Source: a virus
Taxonomy: Duplodnaviria; Caudoviricetes
Virus record (IMG/VR): IMGVR_UViG_3300032332_000629
Span: 1 to 33,543 of that record
Strand: one strand, 5' to 3'
DNA: 33,543 bases
Below are positions 1 through 31,947 of the stretch, one piece after another. The position numbers were made by a program, and so were the translations under genes. The notes under the pieces were generated by a model that made no database searches, was not told the DNA's origin, and saw nothing but the letters and a program-made list of their open reading frames with translations. Positions within the stretch are counted from its first letter, which is position 1. The number at the start of each line of letters is the position of its first letter.

Positions 1-60
1 GGTTACGCGACCTCGTGAAGGATTTTAGGTGAAAGTTTTTTGCAACAGTTCCGCAGAACT

Positions 61-546
61 ATGCCCAAACCTGAGCCCGAACTGACCGCCATCGCCGAGG
101 CGCTCCAGATCGACGTTCGCACGCTTAGAAACTGGCGCAAACGCGACGGCTTCCCGCACGGACAGAACGCCGACGCGGTGAAAGCGTGGGCAGACCGGAA
201 CGGGCTGGGGCGCCTCAAGGACTCGACGCTTTCCGAACTCAAAGCCGAACTCATGCGCGAGCAAATTCGCCTCGCCCGCGCAAAGAACGAACGCGAAGCC
301 GGCGACGTGATTGACCGCGAAGTCGTCGAAGCGATGCTCGTGACCCTCGGCCAAAAGCTTGACCTGCTCCTTCGCCTCAAGCTGGAGGTCGAGCTAGGGC
401 CGCGCGTCGCCGGCAAGAACGCAGCCGAGGCGAACGTCGAGGGCGGGGAAATCCTGCAGGAGATCCGCGAAGTCATCAACGGCAACATCGCGAAGTTCCA
501 GGGTGATGCGCTGGCGCAGTCGCGGGAGGCGGATGCGATTGCTTGA
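61..546 (+). CDS. terS: Terminase small subunit (lambda Nu1-like)
   Basis: N-terminal HTH (IAEALQIDVRTLRNWRKRDGFP), then coiled coil and 'ARAKNEREAGDVIDREVV', typical of Nu1-like proteins; ATG at 61 preferred over the TTG at 40; GpA-like terL lies downstream. Confidence 0.85.
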   Translation: MPKPEPELTAIAEALQIDVRTLRNWRKRDGFPHGQNADAVKAWADRNGLGRLKDSTLSELKAELMREQIRLARAKNEREAGDVIDREVVEAMLVTLGQKLDLLLRLKLEVELGPRVAGKNAAEANVEGGEILQEIREVINGNIAKFQGDALAQSREADAIA

Positions 547-589
547 ATTAACTCTTGCAATCAATCAAGCGGTGTGAATGCTCTGACGC

Positions 590-796
590 ATGAACAACAC
601 CACCGCCGCCAAGGTTAAGACCCTATTCAACGCTATCGCCGCCAACTACCGCGCACGCGGTGATTCCCACCCCGAGGTGGCCGCCAAGTTTCAGGTCGAG
701 TTGGTTTTGCAGACCGCAAAAAGCCAGCCGATGTATATCAATCAGCTTCTCGATGAAGAAATCGAAGACACCCTCAAGGCGGGGCGGGCAGCATGA
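590..796 (+). CDS. Hypothetical protein (68 aa)
   Basis: ATG ORF with a TTGCAA -35-like box upstream (555-560); ATGA overlap with the next gene. Confidence 0.65.
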   Translation: MNNTTAAKVKTLFNAIAANYRARGDSHPEVAAKFQVELVLQTAKSQPMYINQLLDEEIEDTLKAGRAA

Positions 797-1173
797 GGGG
801 CGGCAAACGCCAAGGCGCAGGCCGCAAGCCGCTCCCGCCTGACCAGCGGGCCGTCGGCATCACGGTGCGCGTGCGCCCTGAAATCGCCGCACGCTTCGCT
901 GCATGGTGCACGCTGCGAGGCGTGAGCCAGTCGCGCGCGTTCTCGGCGTGGGTCAAACGCTCGTTGCGCGATCTGGTCGATGCGGTCCATCCAATTTCCC
1001 GCGAGTGCGGGGACAGTAGCTCAGACTGCGACCGCTACACTTCGCCGGTAAGTAAGAGCAACACCGGCACTATTTCTTCCCCGAACATCGGCAGTCAGCG
1101 AACCCGGCCCCTAGTATCCGACAACCAAAACGCCGAAGCGCCTACCACTGAGCCACGTCCGGGTTCGCTGTGA
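793..1173 (+). CDS. Ribbon-helix-helix-type small DNA-binding protein with a read-through C-terminal tail
   Basis: 'RGGKRQGAGRKP' motif, beta-strand 'ITVRV' and two helices; residues after about 60 look like an extension running into attC-like site 1. Confidence 0.65.
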   Translation: MRGGKRQGAGRKPLPPDQRAVGITVRVRPEIAARFAAWCTLRGVSQSRAFSAWVKRSLRDLVDAVHPISRECGDSSSDCDRYTSPVSKSNTGTISSPNIGSQRTRPLVSDNQNAEAPTTEPRPGSL

Positions 1174-1187
1174 TGCCTTGGTTCTCC
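1080..1187 (-). other. attC-like recombination site 1 (108 bp)
   Basis: + strand CCCGAAC-ATCGGCAGT-CAGCGAACCCGG...CCGGGTTCGCTG-TGATGCCTTG-GTTCTCC; 12-bp perfect inner stem; right spacer 10 nt rather than 9. Confidence 0.75.
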
Positions 1188-1212
1188 CTCTTCTTTTTCC
1201 CGTAAATCGCCC

Positions 1213-1722
1213 GTGTCCTCAACTCATCAACAATCACAACTAACTAATCACACTCGCGTGTGCTTCAGTCCTCTGTCTGTGGTGCCTTCGTTCTTTGAGG
1301 CTGACACTCAGGCCCCGGAATCGTCCTCACCGGACGGGAATAAATTTTCAACCGCGGAGGCCGTGGGCGAGCGCGCTGCGCTTATCCACGGCGCTGCGCC
1401 GGTCTGCCGCCGCGTCGTCGCGCTGCGCGACGATGGCCGATGGCTCTGCCTGAGCTGCGCGGAGCCGCACACGATCAAAGCGCCAAGCGGTCCGGGCGCA
1501 TACTCGCCGATGCGATACGCGCTCACGGAAAAGGCACGCCGCGAGCAACGCGTGCGCGCTGGCCTGTGCGCGGAGTGCAGCCAGCCGCGCGGCATCCACG
1601 GCAACGCCCGCCTCTGTGAAACGCACCGCGCCAAGTCGGCCGCTCGGAAGCGCCGGATGCGCGAGCGAGCGATGCACGCGATCCGCGATAACCTCTATGG
1701 CCACCGGGCCGACATACCATGA
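1213..1722 (+). CDS. Hypothetical Cys-rich basic protein (cassette A); true start uncertain, possibly ATG 1511
   Basis: CxxC motifs (CLSC, CAEC...LCETH) and basic tail; ATGA overlap with 1719; N-terminal half does not look protein-like. Confidence 0.45.
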   Translation: MSSTHQQSQLTNHTRVCFSPLSVVPSFFEADTQAPESSSPDGNKFSTAEAVGERAALIHGAAPVCRRVVALRDDGRWLCLSCAEPHTIKAPSGPGAYSPMRYALTEKARREQRVRAGLCAECSQPRGIHGNARLCETHRAKSAARKRRMRERAMHAIRDNLYGHRADIP

Positions 1723-2000
1723 TCGAACCGCAACAACTCATCCGGCGGCATGACCGCATCCGCGCCGTCTGGCAGCGCACGAAGTCAACTAACACGGCAG
1801 AGCGTTGCCGGCTACGCCTAGCCTCCATCGCGCGGGAGGCGCGCGAAAACTTTGACCACGCGCACGCGAGGGCAGTGGGTGCTCGTATGGTCCTCCGGCT
1901 GCCTGACGACCGTGCGCGTGTGTCCTCTTTGGCGAACGCCGGGGATGAGCCACGGCCGCTCGGGGCCGTTGGCTCTGGCCCCTCGTTCGAAAGGCCGTAG
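1719..2000 (+). CDS. Hypothetical protein (cassette A), C-terminus reads through attC-like site 2
   Basis: ATG ORF coupled to the upstream stop; ends LANAGDEPRPLGAVGSGPSFERP across the hairpin. Confidence 0.55.
   Translation: MIEPQQLIRRHDRIRAVWQRTKSTNTAERCRLRLASIAREARENFDHAHARAVGARMVLRLPDDRARVSSLANAGDEPRPLGAVGSGPSFERP
1931..1991 (-). other. attC-like recombination site 2 (61 bp, classic '59-base element' size)
   Basis: + strand GGCGAAC-GCCGGGGAT-GAGCCA-CGGCC-loop-GGCCG-T-TGGCTC-TGGCCCCTC-GTTCGAA: AAC-N9-stem...stem with extra T-N9-GTT, the layout of an attC bottom strand. Confidence 0.85.
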
Positions 2001-2016
2001 AAAATGCCCTCGTAAA

Positions 2017-2072
2017 TGTAACGCCACGACACACGATAAATCTTGCAAACACTGTAACGCTACGCCACAAAT
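2017..2072 (+). promoter_or_regulatory. Cassette B promoter with two operator-like repeats
   Basis: TGTAACGCCACGACACA (2017-2033) and TGTAACGCTACGCCACA (2053-2069), 15/17 identical imperfect palindromes, flanking TTGCAA (2043-2048). Confidence 0.6.
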
Positions 2073-2077
2073 AGGAC

Positions 2078-2551
2078 ATGGACACAACGACCACACAACG
2101 CAGGGCGAAAGCTGGCGGCGAATACGGCGCGAACGGCGACTGGTATGAGGGCGGGAAATTTATCGCCACGGAGGAAGACACCATCAAGCGCGCTCCCATG
2201 CGCCACGAGGTCACGCCCGAAGAGGCCGCGCGCCGCGCCGCCCGTGACGAGGAAAACCGCATCACCGCCGCGCGCGTGCAAGCGTGGCTGACCGAGCGCC
2301 GCGCCCGCTTCGCTGATGTAATCGCGCGCCTGACGGCCAATCCGGGGCATGACCCGAAGTGGTGGGCCGAACTGCTGGCCAACGGCCAAGCGGGATTTCA
2401 CGCCAGCCTCGGCGTGCAACTGCGCGACGGCGGATCGCTCTCGGCGCGGCAGGCCGAATACGTGGCGAAGGCGATTTTCGGGCGCTGCAACCGCAAGAAC
2501 GCCGAAGCGTGGGACGCGCTGGTGTCTGGTCTGGTGGAGGACTTCAAATGA
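2078..2551 (+). CDS. Hypothetical protein (cassette B)
   Basis: ATG with AGGAC upstream; 'RAKAGGEYGANGDWYEGGKFI' N-terminus and 'LSARQAEYVAK' C-terminal helix; coherent codon usage. Confidence 0.8.
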   Translation: MDTTTTQRRAKAGGEYGANGDWYEGGKFIATEEDTIKRAPMRHEVTPEEAARRAARDEENRITAARVQAWLTERRARFADVIARLTANPGHDPKWWAELLANGQAGFHASLGVQLRDGGSLSARQAEYVAKAIFGRCNRKNAEAWDALVSGLVEDFK

Positions 2552-2784
2552 CCGCCGCCGAATACAAGCGCCGCCGCGCCGCGCTCGGGCACACGCAGGC
2601 GACTCTCGCCAAGGTGCTCGGGCTCGCTCGCGGGACAATCGCCCGCCGCGAAACCGGCGCGCTCCCCATACCTACCGAAGCGGCGATTGCGCTTTCTTCG
2701 CTCCCGAAAACCAAGACGCGCCCGCATAGGCCGTCGAACGCCAGCGGTCAGCCACACCCGACCGAACACGATAAACCTCTATGA
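2548..2784 (+). CDS. XRE/Cro-like HTH regulator (cassette B)
   Basis: MTAAEYKRRRAALGHTQATLAKVLGLARGTIARRETGALPIP; ATGA overlap with the upstream gene; GGAGG upstream. Confidence 0.85.
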   Translation: MTAAEYKRRRAALGHTQATLAKVLGLARGTIARRETGALPIPTEAAIALSSLPKTKTRPHRPSNASGQPHPTEHDKPL

Positions 2785-2861
2785 GCACTCAACCCGACAG
2801 CGCACCAGCAGCGACCGCCAAAGCCCCGGACAAGGGTGTTGGCTGTGACGCTTTGTTAGCC
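2733..2861 (-). other. attC-like recombination site 3 (129 bp; loop holds ATG 2781)
   Basis: + strand GTCGAAC-GCCAGCGGT-CAGCCA-CACCC...GGGTG-T-TGGCTG-TGACGCTTT-GTTAGCC; N9 spacers on both sides and an extra T on the right arm. Confidence 0.85.
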
Positions 2862-3149
2862 TCCGATGGACACATCTACGAAATAAACCAAGGCTACTCT
2901 GGCATCTACATCATGCACCGGGATGGCACGGTGACGGGCTCGCCGCTGCCGTCCGAGCTTCAATTCTGGCAACAGGCGCAAGCGTATCGAGCGAAGCTCA
3001 AACACATCGTCGAAGTCATCGAGGCTCACGAAATCGAATCTCTTTCGTGCGACCGCGACGGCAACGAGTATTGCGACTGCCTGCGCCGCGCCGCCAAGGA
3101 CGCAAACCTTCTTCTGGCTAACGATAAAGCTCAGACACGAGCCGATTGA
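2781..3149 (+). CDS. Hypothetical protein (cassette C)
   Basis: Starts in the loop of site 3 and ends in the left arm/loop of site 4. Confidence 0.75.
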   Translation: MSTQPDSAPAATAKAPDKGVGCDALLASDGHIYEINQGYSGIYIMHRDGTVTGSPLPSELQFWQQAQAYRAKLKHIVEVIEAHEIESLSCDRDGNEYCDCLRRAAKDANLLLANDKAQTRAD

Positions 3150-3304
3150 ACGCAGAATCTTTCTATGAAAATCGAACCAATGCCAGAAGGCACCGGCGCA
3201 CTAATCGCGCGCATGGCTGCCGATGATCGTAAAGCCGCGAGCGCAAAAGCCATCGTCGAATCGCAGGCCCAGCAGGCTCGTTGTTCTGTGGCGCTGGGTT
3301 CGGC
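3116..3304 (-). other. attC-like recombination site 4 (189 bp; loop holds ATG 3165)
   Basis: + strand GGCTAAC-GATAAAGCT-CAGACA-CGAGCC...GGCTCG-T-TGTTCTG-TGGCGCTGG-GTTCGGC; N9 spacers, extra Ts on the right arm; loop longer than typical attC. Confidence 0.75.
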
Positions 3305-3548
3305 GTCTGAACTGCGAATCAGCGGAGAAAACGCCCGAATCATAATCGTGAATTGTCACGCCCTCATGCGCCACAAATTCCGCCGCACGCCGTTGTGGTC
3401 GATGGTCAGCCAAATCACCGGCCACGGCTCGGGCTACTCTTGGGAAATCTGCAAAAGTGCAAACCTCGATGGCGGTCAAAACTGTGGGGTCGAACGCCTC
3501 AAGGACTTTCCGCCGAACAAGGCAGATATGCCGACTTGCAGCAAATAA
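3165..3548 (+). CDS. Hypothetical protein (cassette D)
   Basis: Starts in the loop of site 4; core 'TPLWSMVSQITGHGSGYSWEICKSANLD'; ends across the terminal half-site. Confidence 0.75.
   Translation: MKIEPMPEGTGALIARMAADDRKAASAKAIVESQAQQARCSVALGSASELRISGENARIIIVNCHALMRHKFRRTPLWSMVSQITGHGSGYSWEICKSANLDGGQNCGVERLKDFPPNKADMPTCSK
3511..3535 (-). other. Terminal half-site (attI/attG-like simple site) bounding the array
   Basis: - strand GCATATC-TGCCTT-GTTCGGCG: L-like box, 6-nt spacer, GTT core; no partner hairpin arm seen downstream on +. Confidence 0.55.
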
Positions 3549-3557
3549 CGCCCGCTA

Positions 3558-3835
3558 ATGCTCGCCGCCCTCCTCCGCTACTCCCGCCGCGAACGCCGCG
3601 CCGTTGCCCAATCGTGGGCGCGGCGCTCGCACGCGACGCGGGCTGCTCGGCGCATGGAGCGCGGGCCGGATGCCGACACGCTCCGCCGTCGGGCATTGCA
3701 CGATGCGCGAGGCAAAGTGGTTCGCGAGGGCGTCACTTACCACAGAGACGGGCGCGGTTTCGCGCTTGGTGCAAGGGGCGCGGAATCAGTCAGAGCGAAG
3801 TGTTTTCCACTTTCGTTCTTCACCTTATCGCGTGA
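3558..3835 (+). pseudogene. Arg-rich ORF joined out of frame to a 3' fragment of an RHH paralog (3752-3835)
   Basis: ARFRAWCKGRGISQSEVFS matches ARFAAWCTLRGVSQSRAFS of 793-1173 at 13/19 positions but has no N-terminus. Confidence 0.5.
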
Positions 3836-3861
3836 CCGCGTCCGACAATCTTTTATTCCCA

Positions 3862-4053
3862 ATGAAAACCAACACACTACAAAATAAACTAGATCAAATT
3901 CAAAAGCTATTCGACGCCAAGTGCGACAAAAACGCCGAACTGGCATATCAAATAAAGAAGGCTCGTGACCTAACTGCGACTCACGCCGAGGAATACCCAA
4001 ACACATTTGCGCAACTCATGTTAGATTGGGCCAGAATAAATAAGAATCTTTGA
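3862..4053 (+). CDS. Hypothetical AT-rich helical protein (63 aa)
   Basis: ATG 3862 (MKTNTLQNKLDQ...); stop overlaps the terL TTG start. Confidence 0.65.
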   Translation: MKTNTLQNKLDQIQKLFDAKCDKNAELAYQIKKARDLTATHAEEYPNTFAQLMLDWARINKNL

Positions 4054-5840
4054 CCGCCTCCGACGCACTCCTCGCCAAGCTGCGCCTCCCGCAGCCCGAC
4101 CGCTCTCCGATCTACGAGTGGGCGCGGAAGCACATCACGCTCCCCGAGAGCTACGCAACGCCGGGGCCGTTCAACGCAAAGATCACGCCTTGGCTGATTC
4201 CGATCTTCGACGCGCTCCAGAATCCGCTAGTGCGCCGGGTGCATTTCCGCAAAGCCGTTCAAATCGGCGGCACGCTCGTGGCTGACATCTGGGTTCCGTG
4301 GCTCATCGCAAACGACGCGGGGCCGATTTCGTGGACGATGCAGACCGACGAAATGGTCGAGAAGCATTGCAAATCGCGCCTGAACCCACTGCTCGAACGG
4401 TGTAAGCCCGTCGCGTCGATGCTCCCGAAGCCGGGACCGAACCGGATGACTACCGAGATTTACTTCGGCGGATTCTTCCTCTCGCTCAACCCCGCGAATC
4501 TTTCGACGCAGCAGTCGCAGTCAATTCGTTACAAGGTAAACGACGAAATCTGGCTCCCGCGCTGGCAGGAGGTTTACGGTCACGCCGTCGCGCGCGTGTC
4601 GAAGTTTGAAGAGGTCGGGCGCTCGAAGATTTACAACGTGTCGCAAGCGCCCGAAATGTCCGCCGAGGTCGGCAACGTCGAAGATACGAGCTATCGCGCC
4701 GGCAATCAGCAGGAGTGGCACGCGCTTTGCCCGTCGTGCGGCAAGGCTCATCCCGTGACGTTCTCGCAGCCTTCGATCGACGACAAGGAAACGCGCGGCG
4801 GAGTCGTCTGGGACCGCACAGCGAAGCGGGACGACGAGACGTGGGACGTTGCGCGAGCGGTCGAGAGCACGCGCTTTCGCTGTATTCACTGCGGTCACGA
4901 GTCGCCGGACAACGACGCGACGCGCAACCATTGGCGCAAGACCGGGCATTACATCGCGCAACGAGAGGACGCGCCGGCGGAGATCCAGAGTTTTCGCATC
5001 GAGGCACTCGTGGCGCGCCCGATGAAGATGCTCGTGGAGGAGTTTTGCGAGGCCGAGAACCAATGGGCGAAGCGCGGCGAGGACCGCATGAAGATGGAGT
5101 TTCGCACGAAGCGCGAAGCCAAGCCGTGGATCGTCGAAAAGAAGACGGTCAATCTCTTTGTGCAGTCGAGCGGCTACAAGCTGGCTGACCACGCGCAAGG
5201 CCAAGCCATCGAGAACGAGGCAATCCGCTTCATGACCATTGACCGGCAGCTCGATCACTGGTGGGTCGAGATCGGCGCCTTCGCAACCAATGGCGGCACG
5301 CGCTACCGACAGCTGCACTTCGGGCGCATTGACACGCGCGACCAACTGCGCGCGCTTCAACTGCGCTACAAGGTCGCCGACGCGTGCGTTGCGCAGGACC
5401 GCGGCTATCGTCCGAGCGACGTTGACCGCGACTGCGCCGACTTTGGGTGGCGCTCAATGCGAGGCCACGCGCGGAAGACCTGGACAATGCGCGACGACGC
5501 GACGGGCAAGCTGATTAACTTCCCGTTTTCCGATCCGCAGGTCAGTGACTACCGCGGCGGTGACGTTTACTTCTACAACTGGAGCGGCGACTACTTCAAG
5601 GACGTGCTCCAGACCGCGCTTGAGGGCAAAGGCGACTTGAAATGGGAGCTGCCCGACGACGTGAACCCGCTGTATTTGCAGCACCTCAAAGGCGAATCCA
5701 AAGTCGAGGTTCGCGCGGGCGTTTGGGAGTGGCGCGAAGTCAAAAGCAACGCCGCAAATCACGGTCTCGACACGTCGGCCATGATGCTATGTATCGCGAC
5801 GATTGCAGGCGTCGTGCGCTACGTTCCTGCGACGGCGTAG
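4050..5840 (+). CDS. terL: Terminase large subunit (lambda GpA family)
   Basis: 'IYEWA...PGPF...TPW', Walker A-like 'RKAVQIGGT', Walker B 'YKVNDE', CPSCG/CIHCG zinc motifs, C-terminal 'NHGLD' nuclease motif. Confidence 0.93.
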   Translation: MTASDALLAKLRLPQPDRSPIYEWARKHITLPESYATPGPFNAKITPWLIPIFDALQNPLVRRVHFRKAVQIGGTLVADIWVPWLIANDAGPISWTMQTDEMVEKHCKSRLNPLLERCKPVASMLPKPGPNRMTTEIYFGGFFLSLNPANLSTQQSQSIRYKVNDEIWLPRWQEVYGHAVARVSKFEEVGRSKIYNVSQAPEMSAEVGNVEDTSYRAGNQQEWHALCPSCGKAHPVTFSQPSIDDKETRGGVVWDRTAKRDDETWDVARAVESTRFRCIHCGHESPDNDATRNHWRKTGHYIAQREDAPAEIQSFRIEALVARPMKMLVEEFCEAENQWAKRGEDRMKMEFRTKREAKPWIVEKKTVNLFVQSSGYKLADHAQGQAIENEAIRFMTIDRQLDHWWVEIGAFATNGGTRYRQLHFGRIDTRDQLRALQLRYKVADACVAQDRGYRPSDVDRDCADFGWRSMRGHARKTWTMRDDATGKLINFPFSDPQVSDYRGGDVYFYNWSGDYFKDVLQTALEGKGDLKWELPDDVNPLYLQHLKGESKVEVRAGVWEWREVKSNAANHGLDTSAMMLCIATIAGVVRYVPATA

Positions 5841-29188: not shown

Positions 29189-29884
29189 ATGAATAGCGAA
29201 GACGTTAAAACCAGCACCGCAACCGTAACCGCCGTGATCGAAACGCCGAAAAGCGTGACGACACCGGCCCAAATCAAGAGCCCGATTAACTTCGGCGCGC
29301 AGGGCGTGAAGCTCGCAAGTCTTGAAGACGCATTCAGGCTCGCGAACGCAATCGTCGCCAGCGGCTTCGCGCCGCGTGGCATGGAGAAACCTGAGTCCGT
29401 GCTCGTCGCGATCCAGCTCGGCGCAGAGCTGGGTCTCACACCTATGGCAGCGTTGCAAAACACCGCCGTGATCAACGGCCGGCCAGCGATCTACGGTGAC
29501 GCGGCGCTCGCGCTCGTTCGCGCTTCCGGTTTGCTCGAATCGTTCGCCGAGGAAGAGGTCGGCGAGGCCGGCAAAGACACGTTCGGCGTCCGCGTCACCG
29601 CAGTCCGCCGCGATGGGTCGAAAGGCTCCGAGACGTTCACCATCGGAGACGCCAAGGCCGCGAAACTCTGGGGTAAATCCGGTCCTTGGACGGACTACCC
29701 GCGCCGGATGCTGAAATTCCGCGCGCGCGGCTTCGTCCTGCGCGACGTGTTCGGGGATGTGCTCAAGGGCTTGCGCACCGTTGAGGAGGTCCGCGACTTT
29801 CCCGAGGAGCGCAACGTCACGCCACTCTCGGAAAAAGTCGGCGGTGGACTGACTGCCGCGCTGACGAACGGAGGTGCCGCATGA
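29189..29884 (+). CDS. recT: RecT-like ssDNA-annealing recombinase
   Basis: 'AIQLGAELGLTPMAALQNTAVINGRPAIYG', 'GPWTDYPRRMLKFRARGFVLRDVFGDVLKGL'. Confidence 0.85.
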   Translation: MNSEDVKTSTATVTAVIETPKSVTTPAQIKSPINFGAQGVKLASLEDAFRLANAIVASGFAPRGMEKPESVLVAIQLGAELGLTPMAALQNTAVINGRPAIYGDAALALVRASGLLESFAEEEVGEAGKDTFGVRVTAVRRDGSKGSETFTIGDAKAAKLWGKSGPWTDYPRRMLKFRARGFVLRDVFGDVLKGLRTVEEVRDFPEERNVTPLSEKVGGGLTAALTNGGAA

Positions 29885-30177
29885 ACGCCGGGGAAATCAA
29901 GAACGCCGCAGTGATCAACAACGCTACGGAGCAATTCCGCTCGCTGCTCGAAACGCACTTCGTCGCCATCGCTCGCGCCGCCGAGGAATCCTTTATTGAG
30001 GACGAATCGCAGGCCGAGCCGAAAGCCAAGGCATCGTTTGCCGTCGAGTGGGACGCGCTCTCGCTCTCGCCGAAAGTCTCGGTGAAGATCGGCTGGTCGG
30101 TGCGATTCAAGGACGAGTCGGAGGCGATGGTGGACCCGCTCCAGCAGAAACTCGACATCGTGGAGGGCAAAAAATGA
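29881..30177 (+). CDS. Hypothetical protein
   Basis: ATGA-coupled at both ends; GGAGG upstream. Confidence 0.75.
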   Translation: MNAGEIKNAAVINNATEQFRSLLETHFVAIARAAEESFIEDESQAEPKAKASFAVEWDALSLSPKVSVKIGWSVRFKDESEAMVDPLQQKLDIVEGKK

Positions 30178-31010
30178 ACATCGAAACCAACGAGCAATAC
30201 CACGCGAACGACGCGATCTCGCACAGCAAGCTGGAGCTATTCCGGCGCCGGCCGATCTCCTATTACCGCCGATTCGTCAGCAAGACGCTCGCGCGCCCCG
30301 AGGCGACGGAGGCATTCCGCATCGGCTCCGCGGCACATTGCGCGGTCCTGGAGCCTGACGCCTTTTGGGTGCGCTACGCTCTGCGCCCCGAGGGCATTGA
30401 CCGGCGGACTAAGGCCGGCAAAGAAGAGTTCGCGCGGTTCGAGTCCGAGAACATCGGCAGAACCGTAATCGACCAAGGCGAGGCCGGTAGCGTGCGCGAA
30501 ATGGCCGTTGCGGTGCAAAATCATCCGCTAGCGTCGCAACTGTTGGCCGCTGGCTCACCGGAGTTGAGCTGGAGAGTCTCGCCCGCGGGCGGAATGGCGC
30601 TGCAATGCCGGACGGATTGGTTCAACCCTGCCGGCTGCGAGTTGAGCGGAGGGCGACCCTACGTCGCGGACTTGAAGACAGTCGAGAGCCTCGATTCCGA
30701 CGCGTTCCGCAACTTCGAGCGCGCTTGCTTCTCGTTCGGCTATCACCGGCAAGCAGGCTTTTACCTGCCGCTCATCACGGAGATTCTAGGCTCGCCGGTC
30801 TTCGACTTCTTCTTCATCGCCGTGGAAAAGGTCGAGCCGTTCGGCGTTGCCGTCTATCGCCTAAGCGACGCAGCAATCTCCCGCGGGCAAGACGAGACGA
30901 TCAGCGATTTGATTCGCCTGAAATCGTGTCAGGAAAGCCAGCAATGGCCCAACATCGAACCGAGCCTGCGCGAGATTGGGCTGCCTAAATGGTATGGAGG
31001 TGGCGAATGA
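30174..31010 (+). CDS. RecE/exonuclease VIII-like PD-(D/E)XK nuclease
   Basis: ATG 30174; 'YHA..AISHSKL', 'GSAAHCAVLEP', 'CRTD...DLKT', 'YHRQAGFY', 'FIAVEK'. Confidence 0.9.
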   Translation: MNIETNEQYHANDAISHSKLELFRRRPISYYRRFVSKTLARPEATEAFRIGSAAHCAVLEPDAFWVRYALRPEGIDRRTKAGKEEFARFESENIGRTVIDQGEAGSVREMAVAVQNHPLASQLLAAGSPELSWRVSPAGGMALQCRTDWFNPAGCELSGGRPYVADLKTVESLDSDAFRNFERACFSFGYHRQAGFYLPLITEILGSPVFDFFFIAVEKVEPFGVAVYRLSDAAISRGQDETISDLIRLKSCQESQQWPNIEPSLREIGLPKWYGGGE

Positions 31011-31108
31011 AGCCGCTGATTGACTGGCTGCTCTGGATCGCGTTCGCCGCGGTTCTGATTGTGACTTACCCGTTTATTTTCAACCGAAATGACGACGATG
31101 ATCTCTGA
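31007..31108 (+). CDS. Small membrane peptide (33 aa; not in the ORF track)
   Basis: MKPLIDWLLWIAFAAVLIVTYPFIFNRNDDDDL; GGAGG and ATGA overlap. Confidence 0.6.
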   Translation: MKPLIDWLLWIAFAAVLIVTYPFIFNRNDDDDL

Positions 31109-31289
31109 CATTCTCACGACACTCGCAGTTTTCGCAGGCGCCCTTGCGCTTGGCTTTATGATCGGCGCGCACACTGGCTACAAGCGAGGACGCGACGAGC
31201 AATGGATTGAAAGTTTCTTTAACGCGCAGAAAATGCAACGCGACCGGCGCGACAATGCCGGCCGGTTCAAACGGAAGGAAAAGCCATGA
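31089..31289 (+). CDS. Small membrane protein
   Basis: N-terminal TM helix; C-terminal 'RDNAGRFK'. Confidence 0.7.
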   Translation: MTTMISDILTTLAVFAGALALGFMIGAHTGYKRGRDEQWIESFFNAQKMQRDRRDNAGRFKRKEKP

Positions 31290-31498
31290 ACAAAAGAAAA
31301 TCAGACGAGGCGAAACGCAACCAGTGCGACGCTATGCTCGCGCAGTTTATGCCCGTAAAAACGATCGCGCAGGCCCTTAGAATGAGCCGTGGGACCGTGA
31401 GCGAACGAGCGAAGCGCGCGGGGATGACGAGGCACTACATCACGGAGGCCGAGGCGCGGCTGCTGCTCAAGCGGCGCATGGGAGGGTTTGAGAAATGA
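31286..31498 (+). CDS. Small HTH protein, paralog of 28494-28691
   Basis: 'PVKTIAQALRMSRGTVSERA'; shared G..+.Y[VI]TE.E.R motif. Confidence 0.75.
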   Translation: MNKRKSDEAKRNQCDAMLAQFMPVKTIAQALRMSRGTVSERAKRAGMTRHYITEAEARLLLKRRMGGFEK

Positions 31499-31947
31499 GC
31501 ACGCTTACCTTTACCGTCCAGGGCGAGCCGAAGGGCCAGCCGAGGCCGCGAGCGTTTGCGCGGAAGATGGGCAACGTGCACGTCGCGCGGTTTTACGACT
31601 CGGACGTGGCCGACACATGGAAGTGGCTGGTCAAGGTCGCAACCATCGAGGCCGCGATCCGGCAGAAGTGGGCGTTTACCGAGTCGCCCGTTGCAGTCGA
31701 GCTGCGGTTCGCCATGCCGCGCCCGAAGTCGCATTTCGGTGCGCGTGGGCTGCGGGAAAGTTCGCCGCAGTTTCACGTCGGACGACCCGACCTCGATAAC
31801 AAAATTAAGCTAATTTTTGACCAGATCACTCGCTGCGGGCACATATGGCGGGATGACTCGCAGGTCATCGCGCTTAAGGCCGACAAGTTTTGGGCCGTGG
31901 GCGATGACGCGGGGTGCTCGGTTTCGATTTCGACGCTGGAGATTTGA
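31495..31947 (+). CDS. rusA: RusA-family Holliday junction resolvase
   Basis: 'GEPKGQPRPR', 'FAMPRPKSH', 'RPDLDNKIKLIFD', 'WRDDSQV'. Confidence 0.92.
   Translation: MSTLTFTVQGEPKGQPRPRAFARKMGNVHVARFYDSDVADTWKWLVKVATIEAAIRQKWAFTESPVAVELRFAMPRPKSHFGARGLRESSPQFHVGRPDLDNKIKLIFDQITRCGHIWRDDSQVIALKADKFWAVGDDAGCSVSISTLEI

What the first reader, a model, noticed from the sequence alone, without database searches (positions are those of the whole stretch)
1084..3548. All five crossover AAC triplets are in-frame Asn codons; stop codons come from the neighbouring site
Seen: AAC at 1084, 1935, 2737, 3120 and 3516 is in frame in ORFs 793, 1719, 2548, 2781 and 3165 (..SPN|IGSQ, ..LAN|AGDE, ..PSN|ASGQ, ..LAN|DKAQ, ..PPN|KADM). 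None stops before the crossover. A shared register by chance is about (1/3)^4. In site 3 this frame ends in a TGA overlapping the next ATG (ATGA 2781-2784); at site 4 and the terminal site it stops 15 and 9 nt before the next ATG. The GTT-side frames differ (2855 vs 3298), as expected if that side never changes partner. Inference: shuffling swaps C-terminal tails and preserves translational coupling whatever the cassette order.
Basis: partly seen in the sequence, partly recalled or inferred. Interest (0 to 1): 0.85.

Follow-up and report, generated by a model that had tools for sequence, protein, structure and literature searches.

The report
Frame-locked inverted integron cassettes in phage
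A phage keeps small genes in integron-type swappable cassettes written backwards compared with those of bacteria, so most genes read through the predicted swap point as an asparagine codon and end in the neighbouring site; close relatives show the same proteins with different tails, which likely lets the phage reshuffle genes without breaking them.

Summary
Observation confirmed: all five AACs are in-frame Asn. They mark four attC-type hairpins and one attI-like end site between the terminase genes of a phage. Its + strand is the recombining strand, so the genes are inverted relative to Opitutaceae integrons carrying the same site family. Tail swaps are seen in nature: seven different cassettes abut the end site at the AAC, six in the Asn frame; 12 of 14 homologs of ORF 1719 keep the Asn, then differ. 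Across 126 viral junctions, 70 of 78 read-through genes use the Asn frame (background 45%); 26 genes stop at or before the AAC. Corrections: chance for this window is about 0.02; a stop near the next start occurs at about half of sites (41 of 85; not at sites 1 and 2); the GTT side does change partner (97%-identical body, different leader); canonical bacterial cassettes also lean to Asn (17 of 24), so selection for shuffling is not the only possible cause. No integrase in this contig. This scan found the arrangement before on other phages; seven paper searches did not find it in print.

The parts
40..546 (+). Terminase small subunit-like HTH protein (context, upstream of the array); the name is inferred from position before gpA
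   Evidence: (weak HTH hits below cut-off)
793..1173 (+). Fixed gene before the first site; conserved to about residue 56-64, then an extension that reads through AAC 1084 as Asn 98; translation of the extension untested
1080..1187 (+). Site 1, attC-type hairpin, AAC 1084-1086 to GTT 1181-1183, one extra base on the 3' arm
   Evidence: z -2.2
1213..1722 (+). First ORF of cassette A (1086-1936); start uncertain; its stop overlaps ATG 1719
   Evidence: relatives cover part of it
1719..2000 (+). Conserved gene reading through AAC 1935 as Asn 73; 12 of 14 homologs keep the Asn and then carry other tails
1931..1991 (+). Site 2, 53-nt attC, AAC 1935 to GTT 1985-1987, unpaired T on the 3' arm; 85-87% identical to chromosomal attC sites of Opitutae genomes
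   Evidence: z -3.8
2078..2551 (+). First ORF of cassette B (1937-2738), no family hit
2548..2784 (+). XRE-type HTH gene reading through AAC 2737 as Asn 64; stop overlaps ATG 2781
2733..2861 (+). Site 3, AAC 2737 to GTT 2855-2857; its loop holds the upstream gene's stop and the start and 26-residue leader of ORF 2781
2781..3149 (+). Gene of cassette C (2739-3121); Asn 114 at AAC 3120; homolog P0001 ends N-K instead of N-DKAQTRAD
3116..3304 (+). Site 4, AAC 3120 to GTT 3298-3300; its loop holds the upstream stop and the start and 45-residue leader of ORF 3165
3165..3548 (+). Gene of cassette D (3122-3517); Asn 118 at AAC 3516; tail supplied by the end site
3512..3548 (+). End site (attI-like half site, no second arm), shared from the AAC onward by relatives with six other upstream cassettes
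3558..3887 (+). Fixed gene after the end site; homologs lie near arrays in other phages (L121, L126, L115)
4050..5840 (+). Terminase large subunit gpA (context)

Best explanation
This is a phage-borne array of integron-type cassettes whose genes lie backwards relative to their attC sites, so that the predicted crossover (AA|C) falls inside the upstream gene as an in-frame Asn codon, and a cassette that moves, likely by a host integron integrase acting in trans, takes its stop codon and short tail from whichever site follows it. Each cassette runs from the C of one AAC to the AA of the next and carries its own site at its 5' end; about two thirds of the sites also hold the start codon and N-terminal leader of the cassette's gene. 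New cassettes likely enter at the attI-like end site (3516). The shared register is likely kept by purifying selection: it is the only frame that stops inside nearly every site and never runs into the next gene. Stop-start coupling is a frequent, not general, by-product. More rarely the site upstream of a gene body is replaced as well, which swaps the leader.
For: Shown: (1) hairpins with AAC/GTT ends and extra bases on the + strand 3' arm; in integrons the extrahelical bases set the recombining strand (PMC2727003, passages) and the cut lies between A and C of RYYYAAC on it (PMC7439510, passages). (2) The 4 nt before each AAC complement the 4 nt after the previous GTT in 72 of 88 viral cassettes (same-site 15 of 82; shuffled mean 10, max 21); in the window 3/4, 3/4, 4/4, 4/4. 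(3) Opitutaceae and other Verrucomicrobiota chromosomes carry the same site family beside an integrase, with genes on the other strand (antisense 100, sense 15, tie 5 of 120 bodies). (4) Seven distinct cassettes join the end site at the AAC, six as Asn; one cassette ends N-KADMPTCSK in L103 and N-VEISH... in L102 with an identical upstream site. (5) Contigs of other runs leave the window sequence at 1087, 1937, 1939 and 2739 (twice), and one starts at 3515 (21 of 27 loose ends listed; X1 may be the source sample). (6) 70 of 78 read-through junctions are Asn by a coding model blind to the AAC, 50 of 53 by a longest-ORF rule; majority Asn in 28 of 32 loci. (7) Genes starting inside a site avoid the AAC frame (6 of 58, p = 5e-5). 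(8) A related viral contig has an integron-integrase-like gene 59 nt after its terminal AAC (L307; TIGR02249 212.7 bits, cut-off 265). Inferred: integrase action on these sites, supply in trans, selection as the cause of the register.
Against: No tyrosine recombinase in this 90%-complete linear contig. Sites 3 and 4 do not take the attC fold as their minimum-energy structure. Canonical bacterial cassettes that read through their own AAC, which is not a crossover, also favour Asn (17 of 24), as do 2 of 3 genes of the canonical array of phage TJE1; the phage bias is stronger (50 of 53, Fisher p = 0.008) but selection for shuffling is not the only source. Frame +1 also stops inside 69 of 85 sites, so safety alone does not explain 70 against 4. 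26 of 104 called viral junctions need no borrowed stop. The loci were collected with motifs of this site family and include related phages, so junctions are not fully independent. No expression data.
Confidence: 0.72

Rival explanations
1. Same anatomy and same crossover, but the Asn register comes from how cassettes are first made (capture of a gene end at an in-frame AAC, helped by codon usage) and is only inherited; shuffling swaps tails, but the register is not kept for the sake of shuffling or coupling.
For: AAC is in frame in 45% of background cases. Canonical cassettes, where the AAC travels with its gene, show 17 Asn of 24 read-throughs; TJE1 2 of 3. Homologs without leader or Asn tail exist (P0034, P0036, P0038, P0043-45), as expected if bodies were cut from ordinary phage genes.
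Against: Read-through is the rule in the phage arrays (53 of 77) and the exception in bacterial ones (24 of 110). Sites themselves are shaped for the Asn frame: stop inside 83 of 85, no fusion in 85, next gene avoids that frame; with L-box starts left out (a subset chosen after the fact) the stop is near the next ATG in 33 of 65 against 16 and 13.
Confidence: 0.2
2. The sites are relics that now serve as short homology joints for the phage's own RecT/RecE-like recombination, not as integrase substrates.
For: The window encodes RecT-like (29189-29884) and PD-(D/E)XK (30174-31010) proteins and no integrase. Some exchanges break 12 nt inside a body or inside genes.
Against: Junctions fall on the AAC itself where partners share only 3-5 nt; the two ends of each cassette are complementary (72 of 88), which homology-driven exchange would not maintain; host integrons with near-identical sites exist.
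Confidence: 0.05
3. Chance: the reader picked the ORFs that happen to span each AAC in a GC-rich genome, and several are not genes.
For: Five of five has probability about 0.02 under the codon-aware null. The ORF 793 extension has no homolog, and the coding model scores the ORF 1719 frame weakly.
Against: ORFs 1719, 2548, 2781 and 3165 have homologs that keep the Asn; the bias holds without the window (65 Asn, 4, 4).
Confidence: 0.03

Closest known systems
CALINs and integrons in phage genomes (Qi et al. 2023, PMC9892861; read parts 2-4 of 7, term passages, supplement part 1 of 2; figures and the Dryad file not seen)
   Same: attC arrays without a neighbouring integrase in phages; five of six tested phage sites recombined with attI1, bottom strands more than top strands.
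   Different: The text I read calls TJE1 and PH101 typical arrays and does not discuss genes inverted against attC, read-through or frame. TJE1 is canonical. One of their phages, MW202573, looks by eye like an inverted array, with four of five genes in the Asn frame and one ending TAA|C (my detector did not call these sites).
Chromosomal integrons of Opitutaceae / Verrucomicrobiota
   Same: Same attC family (site 2 is 85-87% identical to some), integrase and attI-like site in the same geometry.
   Different: Genes lie on the other strand; 86 of 110 called genes end on or before their own AAC; the crossover lies before the gene, not inside it.
Synthetic attC sites built as peptide linkers (Nivina et al. 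2020, PMC7439510; passages)
   Same: attC sites that are at once recombination sites and coding sequence.
   Different: Designed; here natural sites encode tails, stops, starts and leaders of real phage genes.
Inverted-integrase integrons (intI on the same strand as attC; mentioned in bioRxiv 10.1101/2025.02.12.637893, passages)
   Same: An orientation variant of the integron.
   Different: There the integrase is flipped; here (L307) integrase, end site and attC keep the usual geometry and the cassette genes are flipped.

Membership tests
Integron attC site | Inverted R boxes with AAC and GTT cores and a paired L region | tested here: met
   All four full sites; site 2 fold z -3.8, site 1 z -2.2
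Integron attC site | Extrahelical bases on one arm that set the recombining strand | tested here: met
   Extra bases on the + strand 3' arm in all four sites; unpaired T in site 2. A clear extrahelical G was not resolved.
Integron attC site | Folds into the recombinogenic hairpin as single strand | tested here: inconclusive
   Yes for sites 1 and 2; sites 3 and 4 (121 and 181 nt) have other minimum-energy folds
Integron attC site | Recombined by an integron integrase | not testable with these tools
   Needs an assay; natural junctions at the AAC agree
Integron gene cassette | Complementary core sites at the two ends of one cassette | tested here: met
   3/4, 3/4, 4/4, 4/4 in the window; 72 of 88 perfect in viral arrays
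Integron gene cassette | Gene on the top strand, ending at or before its own attC, crossover upstream of the gene | tested here: not met
   Genes are on the bottom strand and span the crossover
Complete integron | intI beside the array | tested here: not met
   No PF00589 match in G000 (contig 90% complete); present in related viral contig L307
Complete integron | attI primary site at the array end | tested here: inconclusive
   Half site at 3516 with seven different upstream partners; position and sequence resemble end sites beside Opitutaceae integrases; function untested
CALIN | Two or more attC sites without neighbouring integrase | tested here: met

The most novel reading that the evidence does not exclude
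These attC sites are natural protein-end modules. Phages turn the core of an ordinary gene into a cassette by fitting it between a GTT and an AAC, so that one site gives it a start and leader and the next a stop and tail. Recombination on both strands then mixes leaders, bodies and tails combinatorially, tuning expression or stability. The arrays would be a readable record of how integron cassettes are born, a long-open question.
Probability: 0.25. Interest if true: 0.9.

Novelty: new variant of a known kind. Interest (0 to 1): 0.7.

Why it matters
Integron cassettes are taught as gene plus downstream attC, with the crossover outside coding sequence. Here phages use the host's attC family with the genes flipped, so the crossover edits protein ends, and population data show the swaps directly. 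It gives a natural counterpart to engineered in-frame attC linkers, explains otherwise puzzling shared N-terminal leaders and variable tails among small phage proteins, and offers pairs of cassette and non-cassette homologs with which cassette genesis can be studied. The arrangement has been seen several times in this scan, so it is a recurring class, not a one-off.

Tried and rejected
Repeat finder: no family matching the sites, which are too divergent. First detector too crude, replaced. Protein-seeded viral scans for ORFs 3165 and 2078 gave 1 weak and 0 loci. The short-loop pattern gave 15 loci, 2 with sites. L105 matched the end-site pattern inside an unrelated gene and was dropped. No blastn match of 2700-3560 among 50,697 annotated phage records. 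Longest stop-free stretch is a poor strand test in these GC-rich phages (sense 41, tie 22, anti 19 of 82); the coding model was used instead. Loci L108, L128 and L131 have uniform sites and unclear gene strand; they stay in the 126-junction tally and were removed from the tail counts (4 of 89 rows). No sigma-70 consensus promoter in 500-4100. No RNA holder listed. Only 4 of 11 listed runs were laid. Only 1 of 5 array-bearing viral contigs tested had a tyrosine recombinase; its close relatives were 2 contigs. PH101 was not examined; P12002L was looked at only by eye and its genes stop before the sites. Considered and rejected: crossover at the + strand GTT as the main route (contradicted); Treponema-type inverted-integrase integron (name recalled; geometry differs). 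Paper searches: searches found no description of inverted, frame-locked phage cassettes; the library lacks most subscription papers.
Full report
1. The observation. The window is a 33.5-kb linear virus contig, 90% complete by the record's estimate, with lambda-type terminase and portal genes. The five AACs are Asn codons of ATG-started ORFs, none of which stops before the AAC. The stop and start spacings quoted for sites 3, 4 and the end site are right. With a codon-aware null (1003 of 2217 background AACs in frame) five of five has probability 0.019.

2. What the sites are. Four are hairpins from AAC to GTT, 100, 53, 121 and 181 nt long, with extra bases on the 3' arm of the + strand. Site 2 folds with z -3.8 and site 1 with z -2.2; sites 3 and 4 have other minimum-energy folds. 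In integrons the extrahelical bases choose the recombining strand (PMC2727003, passages), and the cut lies between A and C of RYYYAAC on that strand (PMC7439510, passages). So the + strand here is the bottom strand and the AAC is the predicted crossover. The two ends of each cassette are complementary: 3/4, 3/4, 4/4, 4/4 in the window, and 72 of 88 perfect in viral arrays against 15 of 82 within a site and a shuffled mean of 10. There an integrase-like gene lies downstream on the motif strand and the cassette genes lie on the other strand (100 antisense, 15 sense, 5 ties). Site 2 is 85-87% identical to such sites, which points to an Opitutae host (inference). The fifth AAC has no second arm; its place and sequence resemble the end sites beside those integrases.

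3. Natural swaps. Terminase relatives L001 and L002 match the window from the AAC at 3516 onward. With the metagenome scan (7 loci, one chance match dropped, L101 and L104 the same junction as L002) there are seven distinct upstream cassettes including the window's; six read the AAC as Asn and end KADMPTCSK, and one (L102) stops 4 nt before it. One cassette has an identical body start and upstream site in L102 and L103 but different tails. Contigs from four laid runs leave the window at 1087, 1937, 1939 and twice at 2739, and one begins at 3515 (X1 may be the source sample). In proteins: 12 of 14 homologs of ORF 1719 keep the Asn and then differ; P0001 matches ORF 2781 in 85 of 88 body residues and ends N-K; of 13 aligned homologs of ORF 3165 (26 found, 23 fetched) six end P-N plus a tail, and six lack both leader and Asn tail. 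ORF 793 is the weak case: of 11 distinct homolog ends listed, those of L101, L104 and L126 read through an AAC as Asn near residue 57-60, the other eight stop by about residue 57-63, and none covers the window's residues 65-97.

4. Tally. Sites were called in all viral and metagenome loci; the frame of the upstream gene came from a three-periodic model on the 120 nt ending 15 nt before the AAC. Of 126 unique junctions in 38 loci: Asn 70, other frames 4 and 4, stop overlapping the AAC 15, stop before 11, ambiguous 6, antisense better 9, no open frame 7. 70 of 78 against 0.452 gives p = 1.6e-16; without the window 65, 4, 4; majority Asn in 28 of 32 loci. A longest-ORF rule gave 50, 2, 1, with 24 own-stop and 6 uncalled. 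The same strand of bacterial arrays shows no bias (25, 11, 34). Caveat: loci were collected with motifs of one site family and are partly related.

5. Tails and coupling. For 85 sites with a called next gene (of 121; 4 rows of unclear strand removed), the Asn frame stops inside the site in 83 and never fuses with the next gene; the other frames stop inside 69 and 36 and fuse in 13 and 30. A stop within -11 to +20 nt of the next ATG occurs in 41, 36 and 13; without the 20 starts inside the L box, 33, 16 and 13 of 65 (a subset chosen after the fact). 58 next genes start inside the site, and only 6 use the AAC frame. So the register protects against fusion nearly always and gives stop-start proximity about half the time. 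Coupling itself was not measured.

6. The GTT side changes partner too. P0032 shares 69 of 71 body residues with ORF 3165 but has an unrelated leader in the same frame; P0002-P0007 share a body under at least two leader types; contigs with the 2000-2739 body at 97% have another right arm, with the break about 12 nt inside the body. Leaders use all three GTT frames (32, 17, 9). The route (minor top-strand recombination, phage RecT, or repeated cassette genesis) is open. The Asn lean is also not unique to crossovers: canonical bacterial cassettes give 17 Asn of 24 read-throughs, with 86 of 110 ending on or before the AAC, and TJE1 gives 2 of 3. The phage bias is stronger (p = 0.008).

7. Mechanism. 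Shown: anatomy, polarity, register, swaps at the AAC. Inferred: excision and insertion by an integron integrase, here in trans since none is encoded, with entry at the end site; purifying selection against fusions as the main keeper of the register. A related viral contig has its own integrase-like gene directly after the terminal AAC (212.7 bits, below the 265 cut-off).

8. Comparison and novelty. It works like an integron cassette array and meets the CALIN definition; it fails the canonical gene orientation. Qi et al. 2023 (PMC9892861; parts 2-4 of 7, passages, supplement part 1 of 2; figures and the Dryad annotation file unseen, which may show attC direction) reported phage attC arrays but, in what I read, not inverted genes or frames; one of their phages appears to be such an array. 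Seven searches found no description. Six earlier notes of this scan report the same arrangement on other phages (seen after my tallies); they are not independent support. What this locus adds is direct population evidence of tail swaps at one end site, leader swaps, and two controls that temper the selection argument.

9. Verdict. Real feature; new variant of a known kind; interest 0.7.

Noticed in passing
L307 6942-7972 (also L112, L118, L146, L308): Viral contigs of 38.6 and 84.5 kb carry a seven-site inverted array, a terminal AAC site and an integron-integrase-like gene 59 nt downstream on the gene strand: a phage-context complete integron with flipped cassettes.
   Followed up: partly
L310 (MW202573) 2150-3740: A published phage CALIN looks by eye like an inverted array; four of five annotated genes read the AAC as Asn and one ends TAA|C.
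   Followed up: partly
L309 (TJE1) 77-1520: Canonical phage array in which two of three genes still read their own AAC as Asn.
   Followed up: partly
L108 3412-5662, L128, L131: Uniform 81-nt sites; ORFs starting 20-29 nt before each AAC run through the whole site in another fixed frame. Gene strand unresolved.
   Followed up: no
window 2781-2858 and 3165-3300; P0009-P0016, P0050, P0051, P0054, P0056, P0057: Site-encoded leaders are shared by unrelated small proteins; the residues just after the leader predict the residues before the terminal Asn through core complementarity.
   Followed up: partly
window 555-592 and 2040-2080; L101, L103: A TTGCAA-containing motif precedes small genes, repeated in relatives; possible early promoter, including one inside cassette B. 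The consensus scan did not score it.
   Followed up: no
window 2078-2784; L099, L101, L130, L301: Two-gene cassette ending in an XRE HTH gene; similar small two-gene modules occur in relatives' cassettes.
   Followed up: no
window 29189-31947: RecT-like, PD-(D/E)XK and RusA genes.
   Followed up: no
L151-L153, L247: Arrays of 11-21 sites of this family; L151-L153 lie in a genome bin labelled Paceibacterota, whereas most labelled hits with arrays are Verrucomicrobiota; may be mis-binned.
   Followed up: no
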